Of a stretch of DNA of 64,000 bases, positions 2,126 to 30,607 are shown piece by piece (within the stretch, counting starts at the first letter, position 1; the number at the start of each line of letters is the position of its first letter). A program made the translations under genes and the position numbers. The stretch spans positions 6,288 to 70,287 of the forward strand of contig CAYVMI010000019.1 of NCBI GenBank assembly GCA_964452555.1, written 5' to 3'. The stretch comes from an uncultured Desulfobacterales bacterium (GTDB taxonomy: Bacteria > Desulfobacterota > Desulfobacteria > Desulfobacterales > B30-G6). Under the pieces are notes generated by a model. The model worked only from the letters and a program-made list of their open reading frames with translations. It was not told the DNA's origin and made no database searches.

Positions 2126-3292
2126 ATGGGAAAAGTAGGAATCATTGGTGTGGGCCAGAGCACGTTTGTGCGGTCCTATCCCGGATCTATCAGGGAACTT
2201 GTGTTCGATGGCTTTAAAGATTGTATGCAGGATGCTCAGATTGCGGCCAGTGATATTGACGCATCCGTGGTATGCTCTGCACCGGAGTATGACAAACAGC
2301 GTTCGCCGGCGGGAGTATTCGCAGAGTACCTGGGTTTAAATCCCCAACCAACCTTTTATGTGGAAACCCTGTGTTCTTCCAGCACGACCGGTTTGAAATT
2401 GGCTTATTCCCTGGTAAAATCCGGACTGCATGATGTGGTGGCCGTTTTAGGTTTTCAAAAAATGTCTGAAATATCTTCATCCGAATCCCAAGAACGGATG
2501 GGACGCGGGGCCGATATTCAGTGGGAAAGTCCCTTCGGCACAATGATGCCGGCTTATTACGCCATGTACGCCCGCGCTTATCTGGAACAGAGTGGCGCTA
2601 CCCTGGATGATTTGGCGCTCATTCGTGTCAAAGCAGCAACCTATGGTCAAATCAACGATCGCGCTGTATATCGCAAGCCGGTGACATACGACATGTTTCA
2701 GGATCCCGAACATATTATGGGCCGACCTGTTTCAACGCCTCTGCGGGTTGGAGACTGCTGTGCCAATGCAGACGGCAGTTCCTGCATTATCGTTGCCAGT
2801 GAAGAAAGAGCCAAAGCCCTGGGTGTTGAGCCCATTTGGATTCTCGGCATAGGCTCGGCCACCACGAGCGTAAACCTGGCAGGTAGAGACCTCTTTTCAG
2901 GCCTTACGGTAGCTCAGCTTGCTGCCAACCAAGCCTACAACATGGCCGGCATTACCCCCCAGCAAGTCGACGTAGCTGAAGTGCATGACTGTTTTACCAT
3001 CGCTGAAATGATGGCGTATGAAAACCTGGGTTTTGCCGAGCCTGGCCAGGGCAAAGAGCTTATTCGCAACAAAGAAACCTATAAAGAAGGCAGTATTCCG
3101 GTTAATGTTGACGGCGGACTTCTGTCCAAAGGACACCCCATCGGGGCAACCGGCGGATCCCAGGTGCGCACAATTGTGCTTCAACTAAGAGGCCAAGCCG
3201 GCGACATCCAGGTAAAGGATCCTGAAATCGGCTTGGTACACAATATCGGCGGTGTGGGTCTTTATGGGAATGTCATCGTACTGGGTCGGTAA
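2126..3292 (+). CDS. SCP-x/DUF35-associated thiolase (thiolase domain protein)
   Basis: Nucleophile context VETLCSSSTTG and NVDGGLLSKGHPIGATG. GAGGAG SD. Followed by a DUF35 partner gene. Confidence 0.9.
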   Translation: MGKVGIIGVGQSTFVRSYPGSIRELVFDGFKDCMQDAQIAASDIDASVVCSAPEYDKQRSPAGVFAEYLGLNPQPTFYVETLCSSSTTGLKLAYSLVKSGLHDVVAVLGFQKMSEISSSESQERMGRGADIQWESPFGTMMPAYYAMYARAYLEQSGATLDDLALIRVKAATYGQINDRAVYRKPVTYDMFQDPEHIMGRPVSTPLRVGDCCANADGSSCIIVASEERAKALGVEPIWILGIGSATTSVNLAGRDLFSGLTVAQLAANQAYNMAGITPQQVDVAEVHDCFTIAEMMAYENLGFAEPGQGKELIRNKETYKEGSIPVNVDGGLLSKGHPIGATGGSQVRTIVLQLRGQAGDIQVKDPEIGLVHNIGGVGLYGNVIVLGR

Positions 3293-3344
3293 TACTGACC
3301 AAATCATAAACAAAATTTTTGCTTAACAACAATTACAACTTAAT

Positions 3345-3483
3345 AGGATTCGAGGATTCAAGGGGCCAACTGATAGCTTTTTAGGTGTTTAGGCCGAAGA
3401 CTGTTAGCAGCTGACAGCCTAATAGTCTTCAGTCTAAAAACCAGATAATGCTTGCCCCTCGGATCCTTGACTCCTTGAACCCT
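3345..3483 (+). repeat. Long imperfect intercistronic hairpin built from CAAGG/GGATTC and TAGAC/CTAA words, apex GCAGCTGACAG
   Basis: Outer arms 3345-3366 and 3454-3475 pair at 22 positions with 2 mismatches and 2 G:U. Inner arms are 3397-3408 and 3419-3430, apex 3407-3417. Paired by eye. Confidence 0.65.
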
Positions 3484-3500
3484 TATTATTCGGAGGCCTC

Positions 3501-3938
3501 ATGGGTAAAAAGCAGAGCATCGACGATCGTTTCAAACATTTTGGAACGGTAAGTTTTACAGCAACAACCAAAACAAATGAATTTATTGACTTTCTGAAGG
3601 ACGGTAAAGTCATGGGATCGCGTTGTATGGATTGCGGTCTGGTGTTCTTTCCCCCCAGAGCTGATTGTTACCATTGCTTGTCCAGTAATATGGAATGGGT
3701 TGAGGTCAGCGGCGCCGGCAAACTGGTTACTTTCAGCAAACTGACATTTGCACCCATCGGTTTTGAAGATGACGTACCCTACTGCATTGCGCTCTTGGAT
3801 TATGGTGCTTACAAAGTTTTTGGCCGCATCGCTTCTGATATTCCAGATGAAGATATCCAAATCGGCATGGACATGAAAACAGTGGTCAACACCCTGCCGA
3901 ATGGGCAGATGAACTATGTGTTCGAGCCGGCCAGCTAA
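3501..3938 (+). CDS. Zn-ribbon/OB-fold DUF35 protein (thiolase partner, BbsA-like)
   Basis: CMDCG...CYHC zinc ribbon. GGAGG SD. Positioned after an SCPx-type thiolase. Confidence 0.88.
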   Translation: MGKKQSIDDRFKHFGTVSFTATTKTNEFIDFLKDGKVMGSRCMDCGLVFFPPRADCYHCLSSNMEWVEVSGAGKLVTFSKLTFAPIGFEDDVPYCIALLDYGAYKVFGRIASDIPDEDIQIGMDMKTVVNTLPNGQMNYVFEPAS

Positions 3939-10986: not shown

Positions 10987-11768
10987 TGTCTTCTTCTAAA
11001 CCTATTTACGTGGGTGTGGATGTGGGTGCGTCCCGCACAAAGGTCGCGATCCTAAATGCCCAGAAAAGCCTGTTAGGTCACGCGGTTCAAAAGTCTGGTA
11101 CGGACTTCGCTGCGACGGCGAATCGTTGTCTGCAAATGTCCTTGGAGATGGCGGGTGCCACTAAGGAAGATATGAAGCGCGTTGTGTCCACCGGATATGG
11201 CCGCAAGAATGTCACCTACACGCATGCGACCAAAACCGAGATCGGATGCCATGCCAAAGGCTGTTATCTTTATTACCCAACGGCGATCACGATTATCGAC
11301 ATCGGCGGCCAGGATAATAAAGTCATAAAATTAGATGAAAGCGGTCGTCGAACCGGTTTTAAAATGAATCGCAAATGTGCAGCCGGTACAGGGGCATTTC
11401 TGGAAGAAATGTCACCCCGCCTGGACATCCCGTTGGAAGACATGGATGGATTGGCCCGGCAATCCAAAGATATGGTCAAGTTAGGCAGTTTCTGTACTGT
11501 ATTTTCAGGAACCGAGGTGCTGGAAAATATCAGGCGGGGCAAAAAAATAAGTGATATTATCAAGGGACTGTTTTACTCGGTAACCAAACGTGTCATCGAA
11601 ATGGATGCCCTCAGTGAAAAAGTCGTAATGACTGGCGGGGTCGTGGCCCACAATCCCTATCTGGTTACCATGATGGAAGAAATAATTGGCAGATCCATCA
11701 GCGTGCCTGAACATCCGCAACTTACCGGTGCCATTGGCGCAGCAATTTATGCCCTAGAAGCGGTTTAG
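10986..11768 (+). CDS. Acyl-CoA dehydratase activase (BcrAD/BadFG/HgdC-type ATPase)
   Basis: GVDVGASRTKVA and DIGGQDNKVI ASKHA motifs. Cys residues in NRKCAAGTG and GSFCTVF. Confidence 0.9.
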   Translation: MSSSKPIYVGVDVGASRTKVAILNAQKSLLGHAVQKSGTDFAATANRCLQMSLEMAGATKEDMKRVVSTGYGRKNVTYTHATKTEIGCHAKGCYLYYPTAITIIDIGGQDNKVIKLDESGRRTGFKMNRKCAAGTGAFLEEMSPRLDIPLEDMDGLARQSKDMVKLGSFCTVFSGTEVLENIRRGKKISDIIKGLFYSVTKRVIEMDALSEKVVMTGGVVAHNPYLVTMMEEIIGRSISVPEHPQLTGAIGAAIYALEAV

Positions 11769-11913
11769 GCTGTAGACTGGTAGACTACTAGTTGGTTGCA
11801 ATATAGAGATTTCCGCATTTGATCGGTTAAAAGTTTTAGGTATTAGGTTTTTGGGCATTATAATCTAATAGCAATTTACGCCTAACTGCCCAACAGTCTT
11901 AAGCCTTATAACC
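11762..11913 (+). repeat. Long, loosely paired word-repeat hairpin (TAGAC / CTAA family)
   Basis: 11762-11795 GGTTTAGGCTGTAGACTGGTAGAC... is partly complementary to 11881-11913 CCTAACTGCCCAACAGTCTTAAGCC.... Pairing is patchy. Confidence 0.35.
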
Positions 11914-11994
11914 TATTCACACAAATTGGTGCTGTAGCTGAATAATTCCAACTAACCATCTTAAAATCTCAATAATTTGGTAAAGGGGTTAAAA

Positions 11995-26940: not shown

Positions 26941-27714
26941 AACCCTCTGCTCCGCATAGCCAATATCGAGACACTCTATTTCGATCGGATCTATGCGTTG
27001 CACGGGCTTTCATTAACGATCCAAGAGCAAGAAATTTTCGCGGTACTGGGCCCCAATGGTGCCGGCAAGACAACGTTGTTAAAAACTATCGCGGGACTTT
27101 TGAAGGACCAGCCCAACAAAGGGATTATCGAATTTATGGGCAAGCGGATTCATCGGCGCCCACCCGAACGTGTTGCTAACCTCGGAATTGTTTATGTGCC
27201 CGAAGACAGAGGGCTGTTTCGAGAGCTAACCGTGAAAGAGAACCTGGACATCGGTTGCTGGGGAAGAAAAGGTAAGGAAGTACTGGACGACCTTGAATTC
27301 GTATACACCTTATTTCCGATCTTAAAAGAGCGTGGCAAACAGCAAGCCGAGACGCTATCAGGCGGGCAACAACAGATGCTTGCGGTTGCCAGAGCCATGC
27401 TGCGAAGACCCAAGCTGCTTATGCTGGACGAGCCTTCCTTGGGATTGGCACCTCTGGTTGCCAAGGATGTTTATGAGGCTCTGGTCAAGATCAGTAAAAC
27501 CGGAACAACCATTCTGTTAGTGGAACAAAATGCTAAAATGGCCTTAGGTATTGCCGACTATGGTTTTATAATGGAATCCGGCCGCATCGTCCTGGAAGGA
27601 TCTTCAACGGATCTTAAAGAGAATAAGGATGTCCAGGAGCTTTATCTCGGAATCGGACAAGACGATGAATCTTCCACCGGCTTTAGGCTGTATAAGAAAA
27701 GGAGAACCTGGTGA
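26905..27714 (+). CDS. livF: ABC transporter ATP-binding protein, LivF type
   Basis: Walker A GPNGAGKTT, signature LSGGQQQML, Walker B LLMLDEPS. The first roughly 13 codons are encoded by the AC-rich repeat, so the start is somewhat uncertain. Confidence 0.88.
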   Translation: MNLKKTTNSINANPLLRIANIETLYFDRIYALHGLSLTIQEQEIFAVLGPNGAGKTTLLKTIAGLLKDQPNKGIIEFMGKRIHRRPPERVANLGIVYVPEDRGLFRELTVKENLDIGCWGRKGKEVLDDLEFVYTLFPILKERGKQQAETLSGGQQQMLAVARAMLRRPKLLMLDEPSLGLAPLVAKDVYEALVKISKTGTTILLVEQNAKMALGIADYGFIMESGRIVLEGSSTDLKENKDVQELYLGIGQDDESSTGFRLYKKRRTW

Positions 27715-29507
27715 TGATGAACCATGCCGCCCATTTTCCGGATCTCTTTTTTACCCAAGTCAAACGATTGGGAGACAAGGTAGCACTTCGGCACAAGGAT
27801 TTTGGCATTTGGAATCGTATATCCTGGAAAGAATATGGGCAAAACGTACGTCTGGCCGCTGCCGGCTATTTAGCATTAGGGCTTGAACCAGGCCAACGCA
27901 TCTCAATATTAGGCGATAATCGACCCGAATGGTTGGAGTGTCATCTAGGATCCATGACAGCCGCTTGTGTCACGTGTGGTATCTATCCTACCTCCTCGCC
28001 TGAAGAAATCGAGTATATAGTTGAACATTCAGAGTCGAAAGTTCTTTTTGTCGAAAACGAAGAGCAAATCGAAAAAGTTCTTCAGATTATCGATCGATTA
28101 AACATTAAAAAAGTGGTTATATGGGATGAACAAGGGTTGTGGGGATTCAATCACCCGCGAGTCATCTTCTACAAAGATTTCATTAAAAAAGGCGCTAGCT
28201 TTCTTGAGTCTAATCCGAATGCACTAGATGACCGTATGGCCGCAATCCAACGGGATGACATTGCCATGATGATCTACACTTCCGGTACCACCGGGAGACC
28301 GAAAGGGGCCATGATCTCACATGAAAATATTCTGGCTTTAACGGGTTCTCTAGTGCAGGTCCTCGGTGAAAGAGATGATGACGAATTACTTTCTTACCTA
28401 CCGCTTGCTCATATTTACGAAAACCTCATTTCTGTTTTTCAGGCGGTATGGACCGGCGCAACCGTAAATTTTGTGGAAAGTATCGATACCCTGGCCCTGA
28501 ACTTGCGGGAAGTGTCACCAACCATATTTGCCAGCGTACCGAGACTTTGGGAAAAGTTTGTTTCCATGGTTGAAATCAAAATGTCCGATTCAACTATAGT
28601 CAAACGCGCGGTCTACAAATTGGCCATCGATATCGGATTGAAGCGCATGCGAGCGCAAGCAGGGTCATCTGAGCGGTTGTGGCTCAGCCTCATATATTGG
28701 CCACTATACTGGACGGTTCTGTATCACCTCAAACGACAATTGGGTATGGAACGCATCCGCTATTCCATTTGTGGCGCTGCTCCGGCCAGTCCTGACTTAT
28801 TTGAATGGTTTAATGCCATCGGTGTACCATTACGTGAAGGCTACGGCCAGACCGAATCCACCGGTGTTATTGCCATACAACGGGTTGATCGTCCGAGGGC
28901 CGGGTACGTAGGAGAGGCACTACCCGGTGTTGAAATGAAGATTGCGGAAGATGGGGAAATTCTCGCTCGAGGCAAGGGTGTTTTCAAAGGCTACTATAAG
29001 CAGTCGGAATTGACGGACGAAACTATTGTAGACGGGTGGCTGCATACAGGTGATGTTGGCACTATCGACAATGGTTTCTTACAAATCCTGGATCGTAAAA
29101 AAGACATTATTATCACGCGCGGCGGAAAAAATATTACGCCGGCCTTCATCGAGAATAAATTGAAATTCAGTTTTTACATCCAAGATGCCGTTGTGATTGG
29201 AGACAATCGCAAATACTTGACGGCCCTGATCTTGATTGATGAAGACAATGTCAATAAATATGCCCAGGACAATGCCATTCCCTTTACAACTTTTGCTGAT
29301 TTAACGCAAAATCAGGAAATCATTAAATTGATCGATAAGGAAATTCGTTCCATTAATGAAACCCTGGCCCGGGTGGAAACAATCAAGAAATTTCGTTTGC
29401 TGCCTAGACGTTTCTATGCCGAGGATGGAGATGTGACCCCAACCCAAAAGGTTAAAAGGCGGGCACTGGAGAAAACGTACGGGGAATTGATTGAATCAAT
29501 GTACTAA
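27711..29507 (+). CDS. Long-chain-type AMP-dependent acyl-CoA ligase embedded in the ABC operon
   Basis: YTSGTTGRPKGAM and GWLHTGDVG...DRKKDIIITRGGKNITP motifs. Start is GTG 27711 or ATG 27714, overlapping the livF stop. Confidence 0.9.
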   Translation: MMMNHAAHFPDLFFTQVKRLGDKVALRHKDFGIWNRISWKEYGQNVRLAAAGYLALGLEPGQRISILGDNRPEWLECHLGSMTAACVTCGIYPTSSPEEIEYIVEHSESKVLFVENEEQIEKVLQIIDRLNIKKVVIWDEQGLWGFNHPRVIFYKDFIKKGASFLESNPNALDDRMAAIQRDDIAMMIYTSGTTGRPKGAMISHENILALTGSLVQVLGERDDDELLSYLPLAHIYENLISVFQAVWTGATVNFVESIDTLALNLREVSPTIFASVPRLWEKFVSMVEIKMSDSTIVKRAVYKLAIDIGLKRMRAQAGSSERLWLSLIYWPLYWTVLYHLKRQLGMERIRYSICGAAPASPDLFEWFNAIGVPLREGYGQTESTGVIAIQRVDRPRAGYVGEALPGVEMKIAEDGEILARGKGVFKGYYKQSELTDETIVDGWLHTGDVGTIDNGFLQILDRKKDIIITRGGKNITPAFIENKLKFSFYIQDAVVIGDNRKYLTALILIDEDNVNKYAQDNAIPFTTFADLTQNQEIIKLIDKEIRSINETLARVETIKKFRLLPRRFYAEDGDVTPTQKVKRRALEKTYGELIESMY

Positions 29508-29534
29508 GCCGAAGTTTTATCCTAAATTCGGCTC

Positions 29535-29606
29535 GAGACTGTAGGCTGTAGGTTTTTAGACTGTAGGCAGCTGACAGTCTACAGTCTAAAAACCTACAGT
29601 CTAAGC
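29535..29606 (+). repeat. Intercistronic hairpin with a perfect 21-bp stem, apex GCAGCTGACAG
   Basis: 29546-29566 CTGTAGGTTTTTAGACTGTAG is the exact reverse complement of 29579-29599. The loop contains the same 11-mer as 3407-3417. Confidence 0.8.
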
Positions 29607-29623
29607 CGACTAACTGGGAGGCT

Positions 29624-30607
29624 GTGTTGGATCTAATCGAAAGTTACGCTGAAGAATTAAAGCTCATACGTAAAGCCGGCACTAAAGCCTGGGTATTTGC
29701 TGTCATTATTGCCTTATTTCTGCTACCCCTCTATGCACCTGAAGATTTTGTTTACGTTGCAACCATCATCGCCATATTTTCCATCGGTATTATCGGTCAA
29801 AACATCCTGATTGGCTATACCGGCCAAATCTCCTTTGCTCAGGCGGGATTCTTTTGCATCGGGGCCTTTGCTTTCGGGCATCTATACCGGGCTGGTGTAC
29901 CCTGGCCCCTGAGTGTATTAGCCGCCGGTATAATTACCGGATTTGTGGGTATCCCGGTGGGATTTCCATCTCTCAGGCTCAAAGGTCCTTACCTGGCCAT
30001 TGCTACCATGGGATTTGGCATTGCTGTGTATCAGATCTTCGTCAACACCCCCCTACTCTCCGGCGGACGCATGGGATTGATGATAACCAAATTAGAGCCG
30101 ATTTTCGGGCTCTCGACAGTCAATACGTATTACTATATCAATTTGATCATCGCTTCCATATTTACACTGGTGGCCTACAATATTGTTTCCTCATACATGG
30201 GACGCGCCTTTATCGCCATCCGTGACAATGACATTGCCGCTGAAGTTCTGGGAGTTAATCTGACTCGATACAAATTGATGTCTTTTGCCATTAGCTCTTT
30301 TTATGTGGGCATCCAGGGCGGCCTATATGCCTTATTTCTGGGCTATTTGGAACCTAACATGTTCACCTTTATGGAAACCATTACCTTTCTCGTTGCGGTT
30401 ATCGTGGGAGGGCTGGCTTCTGTGGAAGGTGCCATCATGGGGGCGGCCTTTGTAATTTTAATTCCGACGCGTCTTAGCGATCTGCGTGAATTTATTCCGG
30501 TTGTGTACGGTGTCGTCATAATTCTCATTCTGATATTTCAACCCGGCGGCTTGGCCGGCCTGTGGATGAAAATTCGGCTTTATTTTCGCAATTGGCCATT
30601 CCGTTAG
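29624..30607 (+). CDS. livM: ABC transporter permease, LivM type
   Basis: Polytopic hydrophobic protein with LivM-like sequence. GTG start with GGGAGG SD. Confidence 0.88.
   Translation: MLDLIESYAEELKLIRKAGTKAWVFAVIIALFLLPLYAPEDFVYVATIIAIFSIGIIGQNILIGYTGQISFAQAGFFCIGAFAFGHLYRAGVPWPLSVLAAGIITGFVGIPVGFPSLRLKGPYLAIATMGFGIAVYQIFVNTPLLSGGRMGLMITKLEPIFGLSTVNTYYYINLIIASIFTLVAYNIVSSYMGRAFIAIRDNDIAAEVLGVNLTRYKLMSFAISSFYVGIQGGLYALFLGYLEPNMFTFMETITFLVAVIVGGLASVEGAIMGAAFVILIPTRLSDLREFIPVVYGVVIILILIFQPGGLAGLWMKIRLYFRNWPFR

What the first reader, a model, noticed from the sequence alone, without database searches (positions are those of the whole stretch)
3345..3483. Homologous long hairpins with the same GCAGCTGACAG apex, 26 kb apart
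The spacer between the thiolase and DUF35 genes (3345-3483) and the spacer between the ligase and livM genes (29535-29606) both fold by eye into long stems. Both are capped by the identical 11-mer GCAGCTGACAG (3407-3417 and 29567-29577). They share flanking words: AGACTGT(T)AG on the 5' side and (A)GTCTAAAAACC on the 3' side. Both are co-oriented with the operons and sit between cistrons that are presumably co-transcribed. This looks like a dispersed structured-RNA element family, possibly a processing or stability site, rather than terminators, because no U-tract follows.
Basis: seen in the sequence. Interest (0 to 1): 0.6.

Follow-up and report, generated by a model that had tools for sequence, protein, structure and literature searches.

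The report
Gene-less copies of a hairpin repeat
The two hairpins are real, but they are just two of about 190 copies of a mosaic palindromic repeat that has invaded gene spacers in this genome; the same repeat forms the arms of a small four-helix-bundle gene cassette found in many bacterial phyla.

Summary
GCAGCTGACAG sits at 3407-3417 and 29567-29577, at the tip of very stable hairpins (z -7.4 and -9.9), with no U-tract.

It is not a two-copy family. A model built from 24 other copies finds both hairpins (E 4e-14 and 2e-9). The genome holds about 194 such loci, all intergenic, biased to gene 3' ends and depleted between divergent genes. They are built from 7-8-nt units (TAGGCTGT, TAGGCTGA-AGACTGTT). 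The shared 11-mer is a variant of the common family apex TTAGCAGCTAAYAG.

Copies lie in either orientation relative to transcription, and sense and antisense strands fold equally well. No compensatory changes were seen. At orthologous sites, relatives carry either a 2-8-nt junction or a different hairpin filler. The core 17-mer is patchy within the genus (78, 54, 40, then 0-9 copies) yet occurs in many phyla.

One subfamily of PF05635 (23S rRNA intervening-sequence protein) genes is bracketed by these same arms across phyla, and this genome has one such gene.

Best reading: gene-less copies of a horizontally spreading hairpin cassette, probably cut by RNase III when transcribed.

The parts
3345..3366 (.). 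Outer left arm of copy 1: AGGATTCGAGGATTCAAGGGGC, tandem GGATTCRA-type units of a second repeat module
   Evidence: It pairs with 3454-3483 in the minimum-free-energy fold. The same module flanks about 45% of the best canonical copies in the genome and the orthologous spacer in G007.
3367..3382 (-). Conserved 16-nt family tail (AAAAAGCTATCAGTTG on the - strand)
   Evidence: The tail consensus AATAcGCTATCnGTTG follows the 62-nt hairpin in most canonical copies. It sets the canonical strand of copy 1 as '-'.
3383..3443 (-). Inner TAGG-family hairpin of copy 1 (the family member proper)
   Evidence: Model R1, built from 24 copies on other contigs, scores 58.2 bits (E 3.8e-14) on the - strand and 41.1 bits on the + strand. 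Fold is -29.4 kcal/mol, z -6.8.
3407..3417 (+). Shared 11-mer GCAGCTGACAG at the apex of copy 1
   Evidence: It is a variant of the common family apex TTAGCAGCTAAYAG: TAGCAGCTAA occurs 29 times and TAGCAGCTGA 7 times in the genome.
3454..3483 (.). Outer right arm of copy 1: GCCCCTCGGATCCTTGACTCCTTGAACCCT
   Evidence: It pairs with 3345-3366. The DUF35 Shine-Dalgarno GGAGG at 3492-3496 and the ATG at 3501 lie outside the element.
29536..29606 (+). Copy 2: hairpin built from 7-nt units (GACTGTAG / GGCTGTAG), with about 27 consecutive pairs
   Evidence: Model R1 scores 41.8 bits (E 1.6e-9) on the + strand and 39.2 bits on the - strand. Fold of 29531-29608 is -44.9 kcal/mol, z -7.3.
29567..29577 (+). 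Shared 11-mer GCAGCTGACAG at the apex of copy 2
11836..11918 (-). Third, decayed family member, in the spacer between the activase gene and the HgdB-like gene
   Evidence: Model R1 scores 32.7 bits, E 6e-7. It folds weakly, z -1.9. A partial arm TTAGGCTGTAGACTGGTAGAC lies at 11766-11786.
2126..3292 (+). Thiolase gene upstream of copy 1
   Evidence: Pfam Thiolase_C_1 and Thiolase_N.
3501..3938 (+). DUF35 (ChsH2 zinc ribbon plus OB fold) gene downstream of copy 1
   Evidence: Pfam PF12172 and PF01796. In six more distant relatives it starts 2-8 nt after the thiolase stop.
27711..29507 (+). AMP-binding ligase gene upstream of copy 2
   Evidence: Pfam PF00501.
29624..30607 (+). LivM-type permease gene downstream of copy 2
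   Evidence: Pfam PF02653.

Best explanation
Both hairpins are gene-less members of an abundant mosaic family of intergenic palindromic repeats, here called the TAGG family. Each arm is a short tandem array of 7-8-nt units (TAGGCTGT, TAGGCTGA-AGACTGTT, TAGACTGT), and the other arm is its inverted complement. The same arms bracket one subfamily of PF05635 four-helix-bundle genes, the protein family of 23S rRNA intervening sequences. So the hairpins stand to that cassette roughly as miniature, cargo-less copies stand to a full element.

Shown: the family spreads within genomes and between phyla and lands in spacers downstream of genes, including junctions inside operons that were once tight.

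Inferred: the element is transcribed with the operon, and the 25-30-bp near-perfect stem makes double-stranded RNA that RNase III would cut, as it does in rRNA intervening sequences of the same build. That would split the polycistronic mRNA and uncouple the two cistrons. I see no sign that the host selected the element for this, so the default reading is selfish or neutral DNA with side effects on the mRNA.
For: Family membership:
- Model R1, built from 24 copies on other contigs, hits both sites full length.
- There are 194 loci by HMM and none lies inside a gene. A covariance-model search gave 139 matches among only 150 scored candidates.

Placement:
- Of 190 classifiable loci, 136 lie between co-directional genes, 39 between convergent genes and 15 between divergent genes. 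This departs from expectation by spacer length (p=2.5e-6).
- The median distance from the upstream stop codon is 44 nt.

Insertion:
- The thiolase|DUF35 junction is 2-8 nt in six distant relatives. Within the genus it holds 77-230 nt of differing fillers.
- The ligase|livM spacer differs in G009.
- Two further orthologous spacers compared between G000 and G008 carry different hairpin modules.

Proliferation and horizontal spread:
- The exact 17-mer occurs 78, 54 and 40 times in three genomes of the genus, 0-9 times in the other seven, and 0 times in the sister genera of the family.
- The exact 18-mer occurs in more than 106 contigs from Desulfobacterota, Verrucomicrobiota, Nitrospirota, Chloroflexota, Bacteroidota, Deferribacterota and others.

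Link to PF05635:
- In L002 a PF05635 gene (E 9e-34) sits between TAGG arrays.
- Among its 69-92% identical relatives in metagenomes, 33 of 71 have at least 2 TAGRC units upstream and at least 2 GYCTA units downstream, against 2 of 71 in the inverse-orientation control.
- G000 has one such gene, at C3:196781-197134, with TAGG arms. G012, G004 and G002 show the same arrangement.
- A cognate gene at 64-77% identity is present in 8 of 20 genomes sampled for carrying the 17-mer (three of the 20 duplicate genus relatives); the 8 include Nitrospira, Bacteroidota, Dehalococcoidia, Deferribacteres and Verrucomicrobiota MAGs.

RNase III:
- The genome encodes RNase III.
- The Coxiella intervening sequence has a 28-bp stem with tandem heptamers around an S23p gene, and RNase III cuts it in mid-stem (PMC4990558).
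Against: - No movement, enzyme or target-site duplication was seen. The nearest relative is only 80-86% identical in DNA and its spacers are replaced, not empty, so the element ends could not be defined from a clean empty site.
- Only 1 of 106 loci holding the exact 18-mer has an adjacent PF05635 gene.
- Cognate-gene presence and hairpin copy number correlate only loosely. The three high-copy genomes have the gene (one of them only a fragment), but G012, G014 and G030 have the gene and no 17-mer.
- No transcript data could be obtained, so transcription and RNase III cleavage are inferences.
- The two window copies do fold 4.6-9 kcal/mol better on the + (sense) strand. That could hint at RNA-level selection at these two sites, although the family as a whole shows none.
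Confidence: 0.62

Rival explanations
1. A host-selected cis-acting RNA element. On this view the hairpins are processing or stability sites kept in operon mRNAs to set the relative expression of neighbouring cistrons.
For: Both copies lie between co-oriented genes with no promoter-like or terminator-like site. Both fold better on the sense strand. The downstream Shine-Dalgarno sequences are left free. REP elements in E. coli are known to stabilise upstream mRNA (my own knowledge).
Against: The family lies in either orientation (47 against 39). There is no sense-strand folding advantage over 130 loci. Compensatory pairs are 0 of 14. The elements are not conserved at orthologous sites. About 20% of copies lie between convergent genes. 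No Rfam family matches.
Confidence: 0.1
2. DNA-level protein-binding sites. On this view the tandem 7-8-mers are arrays of sites for a nucleoid or global regulator protein (IHF or HU type, or the four-helix-bundle protein itself), as proposed for the paired tandem-repeat sites of Geobacter metallireducens.
For: The units are sequence-conserved across phyla down to an exact 18-mer. That is more than a stem needs and suggests a sequence-reading partner. A conserved non-palindromic 16-nt tail exists. Strand-symmetric folding fits a DNA-level role. Precedent: PMC2700814.
Against: Copies are depleted in divergent, promoter-bearing spacers and lie just after stop codons, which is an odd place for transcription regulators. 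Copy number ranges from 0 to 78 within one genus. No binding protein is identified.
Confidence: 0.13
3. A REP/REPIN system mobilised by a RAYT (REP-associated tyrosine transposase).
For: The family is short and palindromic, has about 190 copies, is strictly intergenic and is biased to gene 3' ends. That is the classic REP distribution.
Against: The genome has a single Y1 transposase-like gene (PF01797, 34.6 bits, C8:33928-34908). It is flanked by TTTAGGGGACGTCCTTGA inverted repeats, not TAGG units. REP families are usually species-specific, whereas this one crosses phyla.
Confidence: 0.04
4. Rho-independent terminators or attenuators.
For: Strong hairpins directly after stop codons.
Against: There is no U-tract and no terminator-like hit. 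The downstream genes have no promoter-like sites and are fused or tightly coupled in relatives.
Confidence: 0.03

Closest known systems
ORF-bearing 23S rRNA intervening sequences (Coxiella burnetii, Leptospira; S23p/PF05635 gene in a long stem; PMC4990558)
   Same: The stem is formed by terminal inverted repeats that contain tandem heptamers. The cargo, where present, is a PF05635 four-helix-bundle gene. The full-length relatives of the window hairpins (G000 C3:196781-197134; L002) have exactly this build.
   Different: The window copies carry no gene. They lie in mRNA spacers between protein-coding genes, not in 23S rRNA helices. The family has about 190 copies per genome. RNase III excision is not shown here.
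Paired tandem-repeat sites of Geobacter metallireducens ('global regulator binding sites' classes 1-3: GTTGCTYN, TCTCCGTS, MTYCTGA; PMC2700814)
   Same: Three to five tandem 7-9-nt units occur as inverted pairs at a variable distance, in intergenic regions and between operon genes such as proBA. They are species-specific in number. The MTYCTGA unit itself occurs in this genome as the arm of other PF05635 cassettes.
   Different: The unit sequence is different (TAGGCTGT / GAAGACTGTT). That paper proposed IHF or HU binding and made no link to PF05635 genes or to hairpin RNA.
REP / BIME / REPIN elements of Enterobacteria and Pseudomonas (PMC3116915)
   Same: High copy number, strictly extragenic location, palindromic form, bias to gene 3' ends and convergent spacers, and mosaic combination of modules as in BIMEs.
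   Different: No RAYT partner was found. The arms are tandem arrays of short units, not a single imperfect palindrome. The distribution crosses phyla.
Intergenic heptamer repeats: cyanobacterial STRR, GGGNATC of Xanthomonas and Nostoc (PMC4692102), TAACTGA of Beggiatoaceae (PMC4679880)
   Same: Arrays of 7-nt units, a preference for about 4 units, enrichment between co-oriented genes and near stop codons, transcription with the neighbouring genes, and sharing between distant lineages.
   Different: Those are mainly direct arrays on one strand. Here the arrays come as inverted pairs that form a hairpin, and they match the arms of a gene cassette.

Membership tests
TAGG-arm hairpin repeat family of this genome (defined here) | Full-length match to a model built from independent copies | tested here: met
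   Model R1 was built from 24 copies on other contigs. It scores 3383-3443 at 58.2 bits (E 3.8e-14) and 29536-29595 at 41.8 bits (E 1.6e-9).
TAGG-arm hairpin repeat family of this genome (defined here) | Intergenic location and a stable hairpin | tested here: met
   All 194 loci are intergenic. The two window copies give z -6.8 and -7.3.
23S rRNA intervening sequence, S23p type | Long stem made of terminal inverted repeats with tandem heptamer or octamer units | tested here: met
   Compared with the description in PMC4990558.
23S rRNA intervening sequence, S23p type | Inserted in a 23S rRNA helix (9, 25 or 45) | tested here: not met
   Both copies lie between protein-coding genes. The assembly has no 23S rRNA gene at all.
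23S rRNA intervening sequence, S23p type | PF05635 ORF in the loop | tested here: not met
   The loops of the window copies are 3-8 nt. The feature is met only by the full-length relatives: L002 and G000 C3:196781-197134.
23S rRNA intervening sequence, S23p type | Excision by RNase III | not testable with these tools
An RNase III gene is present in the genome.
REP/REPIN with RAYT | A RAYT (Y1 transposase) gene flanked by the same repeats | tested here: not met
   The single PF01797 hit is flanked by unrelated inverted repeats.
MITE | Terminal inverted repeats, a target-site duplication, and a transposase-bearing parent element | tested here: inconclusive
   The whole element is an inverted repeat. 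No direct duplication is visible in the flanks of 29 canonical copies. No clean empty site was available. The parent-like element carries a four-helix-bundle gene, not a known transposase.
Any Rfam family | Match at or near the gathering score | tested here: not met
   No match in the window at the gathering threshold. No match at E<=0.1 in five related loci.
Intrinsic terminator | GC-rich stem followed by a U-tract | tested here: not met
   No terminator-like sites in either spacer.
Geobacter-type paired tandem-repeat sites (PMC2700814) | Three to five tandem 7-9-nt units present as an inverted pair in an intergenic region | tested here: met
   Position profile of 103 arms, alignment A2, and the description.

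The most novel reading that the evidence does not exclude
The PF05635 four-helix-bundle protein encoded by the single TAGG-armed cassette of this genome (C3:196781-197134) may be the sequence-specific partner of the roughly 190 gene-less TAGG hairpins. It would stand to them as a RAYT stands to its REPINs. That would define a new kind of protein-plus-repeat system that spreads across phyla and colonises transcribed junctions, both operon spacers and 23S rRNA. Each protein subfamily would read its own 7-8-nt unit. The exact conservation of an 18-mer across phyla and the constant pairing of this protein subfamily with TAGG-type arms are what one would expect under this reading. Neither proves it.
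Probability: 0.2. Interest if true: 0.8.

Novelty: new variant of a known kind. Interest (0 to 1): 0.48.

Why it matters
Four reasons.

- It re-files a 'candidate structured RNA' as a repeat family. That guards against over-reading hairpins in the operon spacers of Desulfobacterota genomes. In this genome even control spacers fold almost as strongly as repeat-bearing ones (-44 against -49 kcal/mol).
- It shows that junctions which are translationally coupled in relatives (thiolase|DUF35, 2-8 nt) can absorb a 200-nt insert of nested hairpins. This bears on how operon stoichiometry tolerates such invasions.
- It links a very abundant gene-less hairpin to one subfamily of the uncharacterised PF05635 proteins (homologues of the Avd protein of diversity-generating retroelements, from my own knowledge) across at least seven phyla. 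That gives a concrete, testable protein-repeat pair for a family whose function has been open since rRNA intervening sequences were described about 1990 (PMC4990558 cites Burgin et al. 1990).
- I found no paper holding the repeat's core sequence.

Tried and rejected
- Rfam: no hits.
- Terminator reading: no U-tract.
- REP/RAYT reading: the only Y1 transposase gene has unrelated flanks.
- Strand asymmetry as a sign of RNA selection: absent family-wide.
- Orientation bias: weak with the arm model (62 against 37) and gone with the full-element model (47 against 39).
- Covariation: copies are too alike, 0 of 14 pairs informative.
- General nesting in outer hairpins: the flank-to-flank duplex energies do not differ from mismatched flank pairs overall (p=0.71). 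About 8-17 of 133 copies, including copy 1, are clearly nested in the GGATTCAAG module.
- CRISPR-like array in G004: the 104-nt periodicity is a plain tandem amplification at 99% identity, with no spacers.
- Clean empty site or target duplication: not obtainable, because the nearest relative is 80-86% identical and its spacers hold other fillers.
- Plasmid and phage collections: no match. Seven IMG/VR contigs hold the 18-mer, some of them inside coding sequence by chance.
- Intervening sequence in this genome's own 23S rRNA: the assembly has no 23S gene.
- First tblastn with the window's own PF05635 protein missed the cognate gene on C3. It was found only with the L002 protein.

Full report
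OBSERVATION

The 11-mer GCAGCTGACAG is at 3407-3417 and 29567-29577. With one mismatch allowed the window has 3 matches against 0.53 expected. Both surrounding regions fold into long stems. 3345-3483 folds at -61.3 kcal/mol (z -7.35) and 29520-29620 at -56.2 kcal/mol (z -9.85), and no shuffle folded as well. The flanking genes are a thiolase, a DUF35/ChsH2-type protein, an AMP-binding ligase and a LivM-type permease. Neither spacer has a terminator-like site.

NOT A PAIR BUT A LARGE FAMILY

The window is C19:6288-70287 of a 5.9-Mb assembly in 112 contigs. Words such as AGGCTGAAGACT and GTCTTCAGCCTA are among the commonest 12-mers of the genome, at about 105 copies each.

A profile of 103 arms shows a sharp consensus, AGGctnTTAGGCTGAAGACTGTTAGGCTgTTAGg, made of 7-8-nt units. 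The canonical element is a 62-nt hairpin, AGGCTRTTAGGCTGAAGACTGTTAGGCTGTTAGCAGCTAATAGTCTAACAGYCTAAAYRCCT. It is followed by a conserved 16-nt tail, AATAcGCTATCnGTTG.

A covariance model built from 24 copies, none from contig C19, finds both window hairpins full length. It scores 3383-3443 at 58.2 bits (E 3.8e-14) and 29536-29595 at 41.8 bits (E 1.6e-9). It also finds a third, decayed copy at 11845-11914. The genome-wide search gave 139 matches among only 150 scored candidates. An HMM census gives 194 loci.

TAGCAGCTAA occurs 29 times and TAGCAGCTGA 7 times. Its core, CAGCTG, is itself a palindrome. That explains why the same word appears on the same strand in two copies whose canonical orientations differ.

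ANATOMY OF THE TWO COPIES

Copy 1 is a composite. Its parts are:
- an outer arm of GGATTCRA-type units (3345-3366);
- the family tail (3367-3382, read on the - strand);
- the TAGG hairpin (3383-3443);
- a short linker;
- the outer right arm (3454-3483).

About 45% of the best canonical copies sit inside the same outer module. G008 has an identical composite at another site. Copy 2 (29536-29606) belongs to the 7-nt-unit subtype (GACTGTAG), with about 27 consecutive pairs. The Shine-Dalgarno sequences of the downstream genes lie outside both elements.

WHERE THE FAMILY SITS

All 194 loci are intergenic, although called genes cover 84% of the genome. Of the 190 classifiable loci, 136 lie between co-directional genes, 39 between convergent genes and 15 between divergent genes. 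That is an excess of convergent and a deficit of divergent spacers (p=2.5e-6 against spacer length). The median distance from the upstream stop codon is 44 nt. This is the distribution known for REP-type repeats.

TESTS OF AN RNA-LEVEL FUNCTION

The canonical orientation is sense in 47 and antisense in 39 co-directional loci (p=0.45). The sense strand folds better in 68 and worse in 62 of 130 loci (p=0.70). RNAalifold finds 14 consensus pairs, none with a compensatory change.

The two window copies do fold 4.6-9 kcal/mol better on the sense strand. The family does not share this trend. No Rfam family matches.

INSERTION, TURNOVER AND SPREAD

In six more distant relatives the DUF35 gene starts 2-8 nt after the thiolase stop. 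Within the genus the spacer is 77-230 nt and holds different fillers:
- G008 has an unrelated hairpin family;
- G007 has the same outer GGATTCAAG module with a different interior.

The ligase|livM spacer of G009 holds 138 nt of other sequence. Two further orthologous spacers compared between G000 and G008 show the same pattern: one species has a TAGG element and the other has a different filler. These spacers act as landing pads that are refilled over time.

The exact 17-mer AGGCTGAAGACTRTTAG occurs 78, 54 and 40 times in three genomes of the genus and 0-9 times in the other seven. It is absent from the sister genera of the family. Yet the 18-mer occurs in more than 106 contigs of Desulfobacterota, Verrucomicrobiota, Nitrospirota, Chloroflexota, Bacteroidota, Deferribacterota and candidate phyla, usually in several copies per genome. 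A patchy distribution within a genus combined with exact identity across phyla points to horizontal spread followed by bursts of proliferation.

LINK TO A GENE CASSETTE

Earlier notes of this scan said that small PF05635 genes in this window are bracketed by inverted arrays of other short repeats. I treated that as a lead and tested it.

The nine PF05635-like genes found first in this genome carry arms of other unit types. In locus L002, however, a PF05635 gene (E 9e-34) lies between TAGGCTGAAG arrays. I fetched 80 metagenome loci that encode 69-92% identical relatives of that protein. Of 71 with enough flank, 33 have at least 2 TAGRC units upstream and at least 2 GYCTA units downstream. The inverse-orientation control gives 2 of 71. 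By eye most of the rest have variant units of the same type.

This genome has exactly one gene of that subfamily, at C3:196781-197134 (77% identical). Its arms are TTTAGGCTGTAGACTGTAGGC and GCCTACAGCCTACAGTCTAACAGTCTACAGCC, the same subtype as copy 2. Orthologues in G012, G004 and G002 have TAGG arms too, and more distant ones have GAAGG-type variants. A cognate gene at 64-77% identity is present in 8 of 20 sampled genomes that carry the 17-mer, three of which duplicate genus relatives already searched. The 8 include Nitrospira, Marinifilum (Bacteroidota), Dehalococcoidia, Deferribacteres, two Verrucomicrobiota and Desulfatiglandales genomes.

So the gene and the arms travel together, and the window hairpins are the arms without the gene.

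LIMITS OF THAT LINK

- Only 1 of 106 loci with the exact 18-mer has an adjacent PF05635 gene.
- Three relatives have the gene but no 17-mer.
- The association of high copy number with gene presence (3 of 3 against 4 of 28, Fisher p=0.008) is not phylogenetically independent, and one of the three genes is a fragment.
- No transposase-like enzyme, target duplication or clean empty site was found.
- The single Y1 transposase gene has unrelated flanks, which rules out filing the family as RAYT-driven REPINs.

MECHANISM

Shown: the family is real, strictly extragenic, biased to gene 3' ends, free in orientation, recently amplified, horizontally distributed and structurally identical to the arms of one PF05635 cassette subfamily.

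Inferred: the hairpins are transcribed with their operons. Their 25-30-bp near-perfect stems are cut by RNase III, which the genome encodes. This is what is shown for the Coxiella intervening sequence, whose 28-bp stem contains tandem heptamers around an S23p gene (PMC4990558).

The likely consequence is splitting of the operon mRNA and loss of the translational coupling seen in relatives.

Whether the four-helix-bundle protein acts on the arms is open. I put it at about 0.2.

COMPARISON WITH KNOWN SYSTEMS

The architecture of inverted pairs of tandem 7-9-mers in spacers was catalogued in Geobacter metallireducens as putative regulator sites (PMC2700814). Its MTYCTGA unit occurs in this genome as another cassette arm. 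Heptamer arrays with similar placement are known from Xanthomonas, Nostoc and Beggiatoaceae (PMC4692102 and PMC4679880). I found no paper containing the TAGG core sequence, and none linking such gene-less hairpins to a cognate PF05635 subfamily. The library searched is incomplete.

VERDICT

The finding is a real and non-random feature. It is an ordinary member of a very abundant repeat family and not a special two-copy RNA element. I rate it a new variant of a known kind and of moderate interest. The interest lies mainly in the protein-repeat pairing it exposes.

Noticed in passing
L011, L013, L031, L044, L046, L053, L101 and others (around the 18-mer match): A conserved gene-less element of about 190 nt recurs in many Desulfobacterota and Syntrophaceae MAGs. 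It has outer inverted repeats (GTAACTACTCAGGTGGA ... TCCACCTGAGTAGTTAC), then TAGG arms, then a conserved core of about 100 nt (GAAAAAGCGCATTTTGAAGCCATGTTTGGTGCAAGAATCAGATATTTCCGCCAAAGTACGGCAATCGTGCTC). The same outer repeats flank many of the PF05635 cassettes in metagenomes. There is no Rfam match and it is absent from this genome.
   Followed up: partly
G004:C11:118700-119650 (L146 1201-2149); also G004:C18 and G004:C14: A 104-nt composite unit (TAGG arm plus a CCCTCGAACCC module) is tandemly amplified 9 times at 99% identity, in three separate arrays. It is a minisatellite built from the repeat modules, not a CRISPR array.
   Followed up: yes
G000 C8:33928-34908 (- strand): This is the only Y1 transposase-like (PF01797) gene of the genome. 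It encodes a 326-aa protein and is flanked by the inverted repeat TTTAGGGGACGTCCTTGA ... TCAAGGACGTCCCCTAAA. It may be a RAYT-like gene with its own separate repeat.
   Followed up: partly
whole genome G000: Other highly repeated short-unit families are present: AACATCGAACAT (111 copies), ATCGGGATCGGG / CGATCCCGATAGCGA (about 75), TAAAACCTAAAACTTAAAAC (about 80) and AAGCTATCTCAAAATAA (about 62). Several of them are the arms of other PF05635 genes. Control spacers without a TAGG element fold almost as strongly as those with one (-44 against -49 kcal/mol for about 185 nt).
   Followed up: partly
window 3293-3500 and its orthologues L116, L117, L119, L121, L123, L125: The thiolase and DUF35 genes are 2-8 nt apart in six relatives, which suggests translational coupling of a protein pair. 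They are 208 nt apart here. The insert must have broken that coupling, yet both genes remain intact.
   Followed up: partly
window 29508-29533: A small separate hairpin, GCCGAAgttttatcctaaaTTCGGC, starts one base after the ligase stop codon, just before copy 2.
   Followed up: no
G037:C9:42024-42371; G001:C18:122150-122497; G004:C26:94132-94473; G009:C1:412423-412764: Several PF05635 genes of this or a neighbouring subfamily carry one in-frame stop codon, and G008 has only a C-terminal fragment. This suggests frequent decay of the cargo gene.
   Followed up: no
L246, L248, L250, L251 (IMG/VR contigs): Four of the seven predicted viral contigs that hold the exact 18-mer show true TAGG arms. None carries the cognate gene. 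They could be a vehicle for transfer, or misclassified host DNA.
   Followed up: partly
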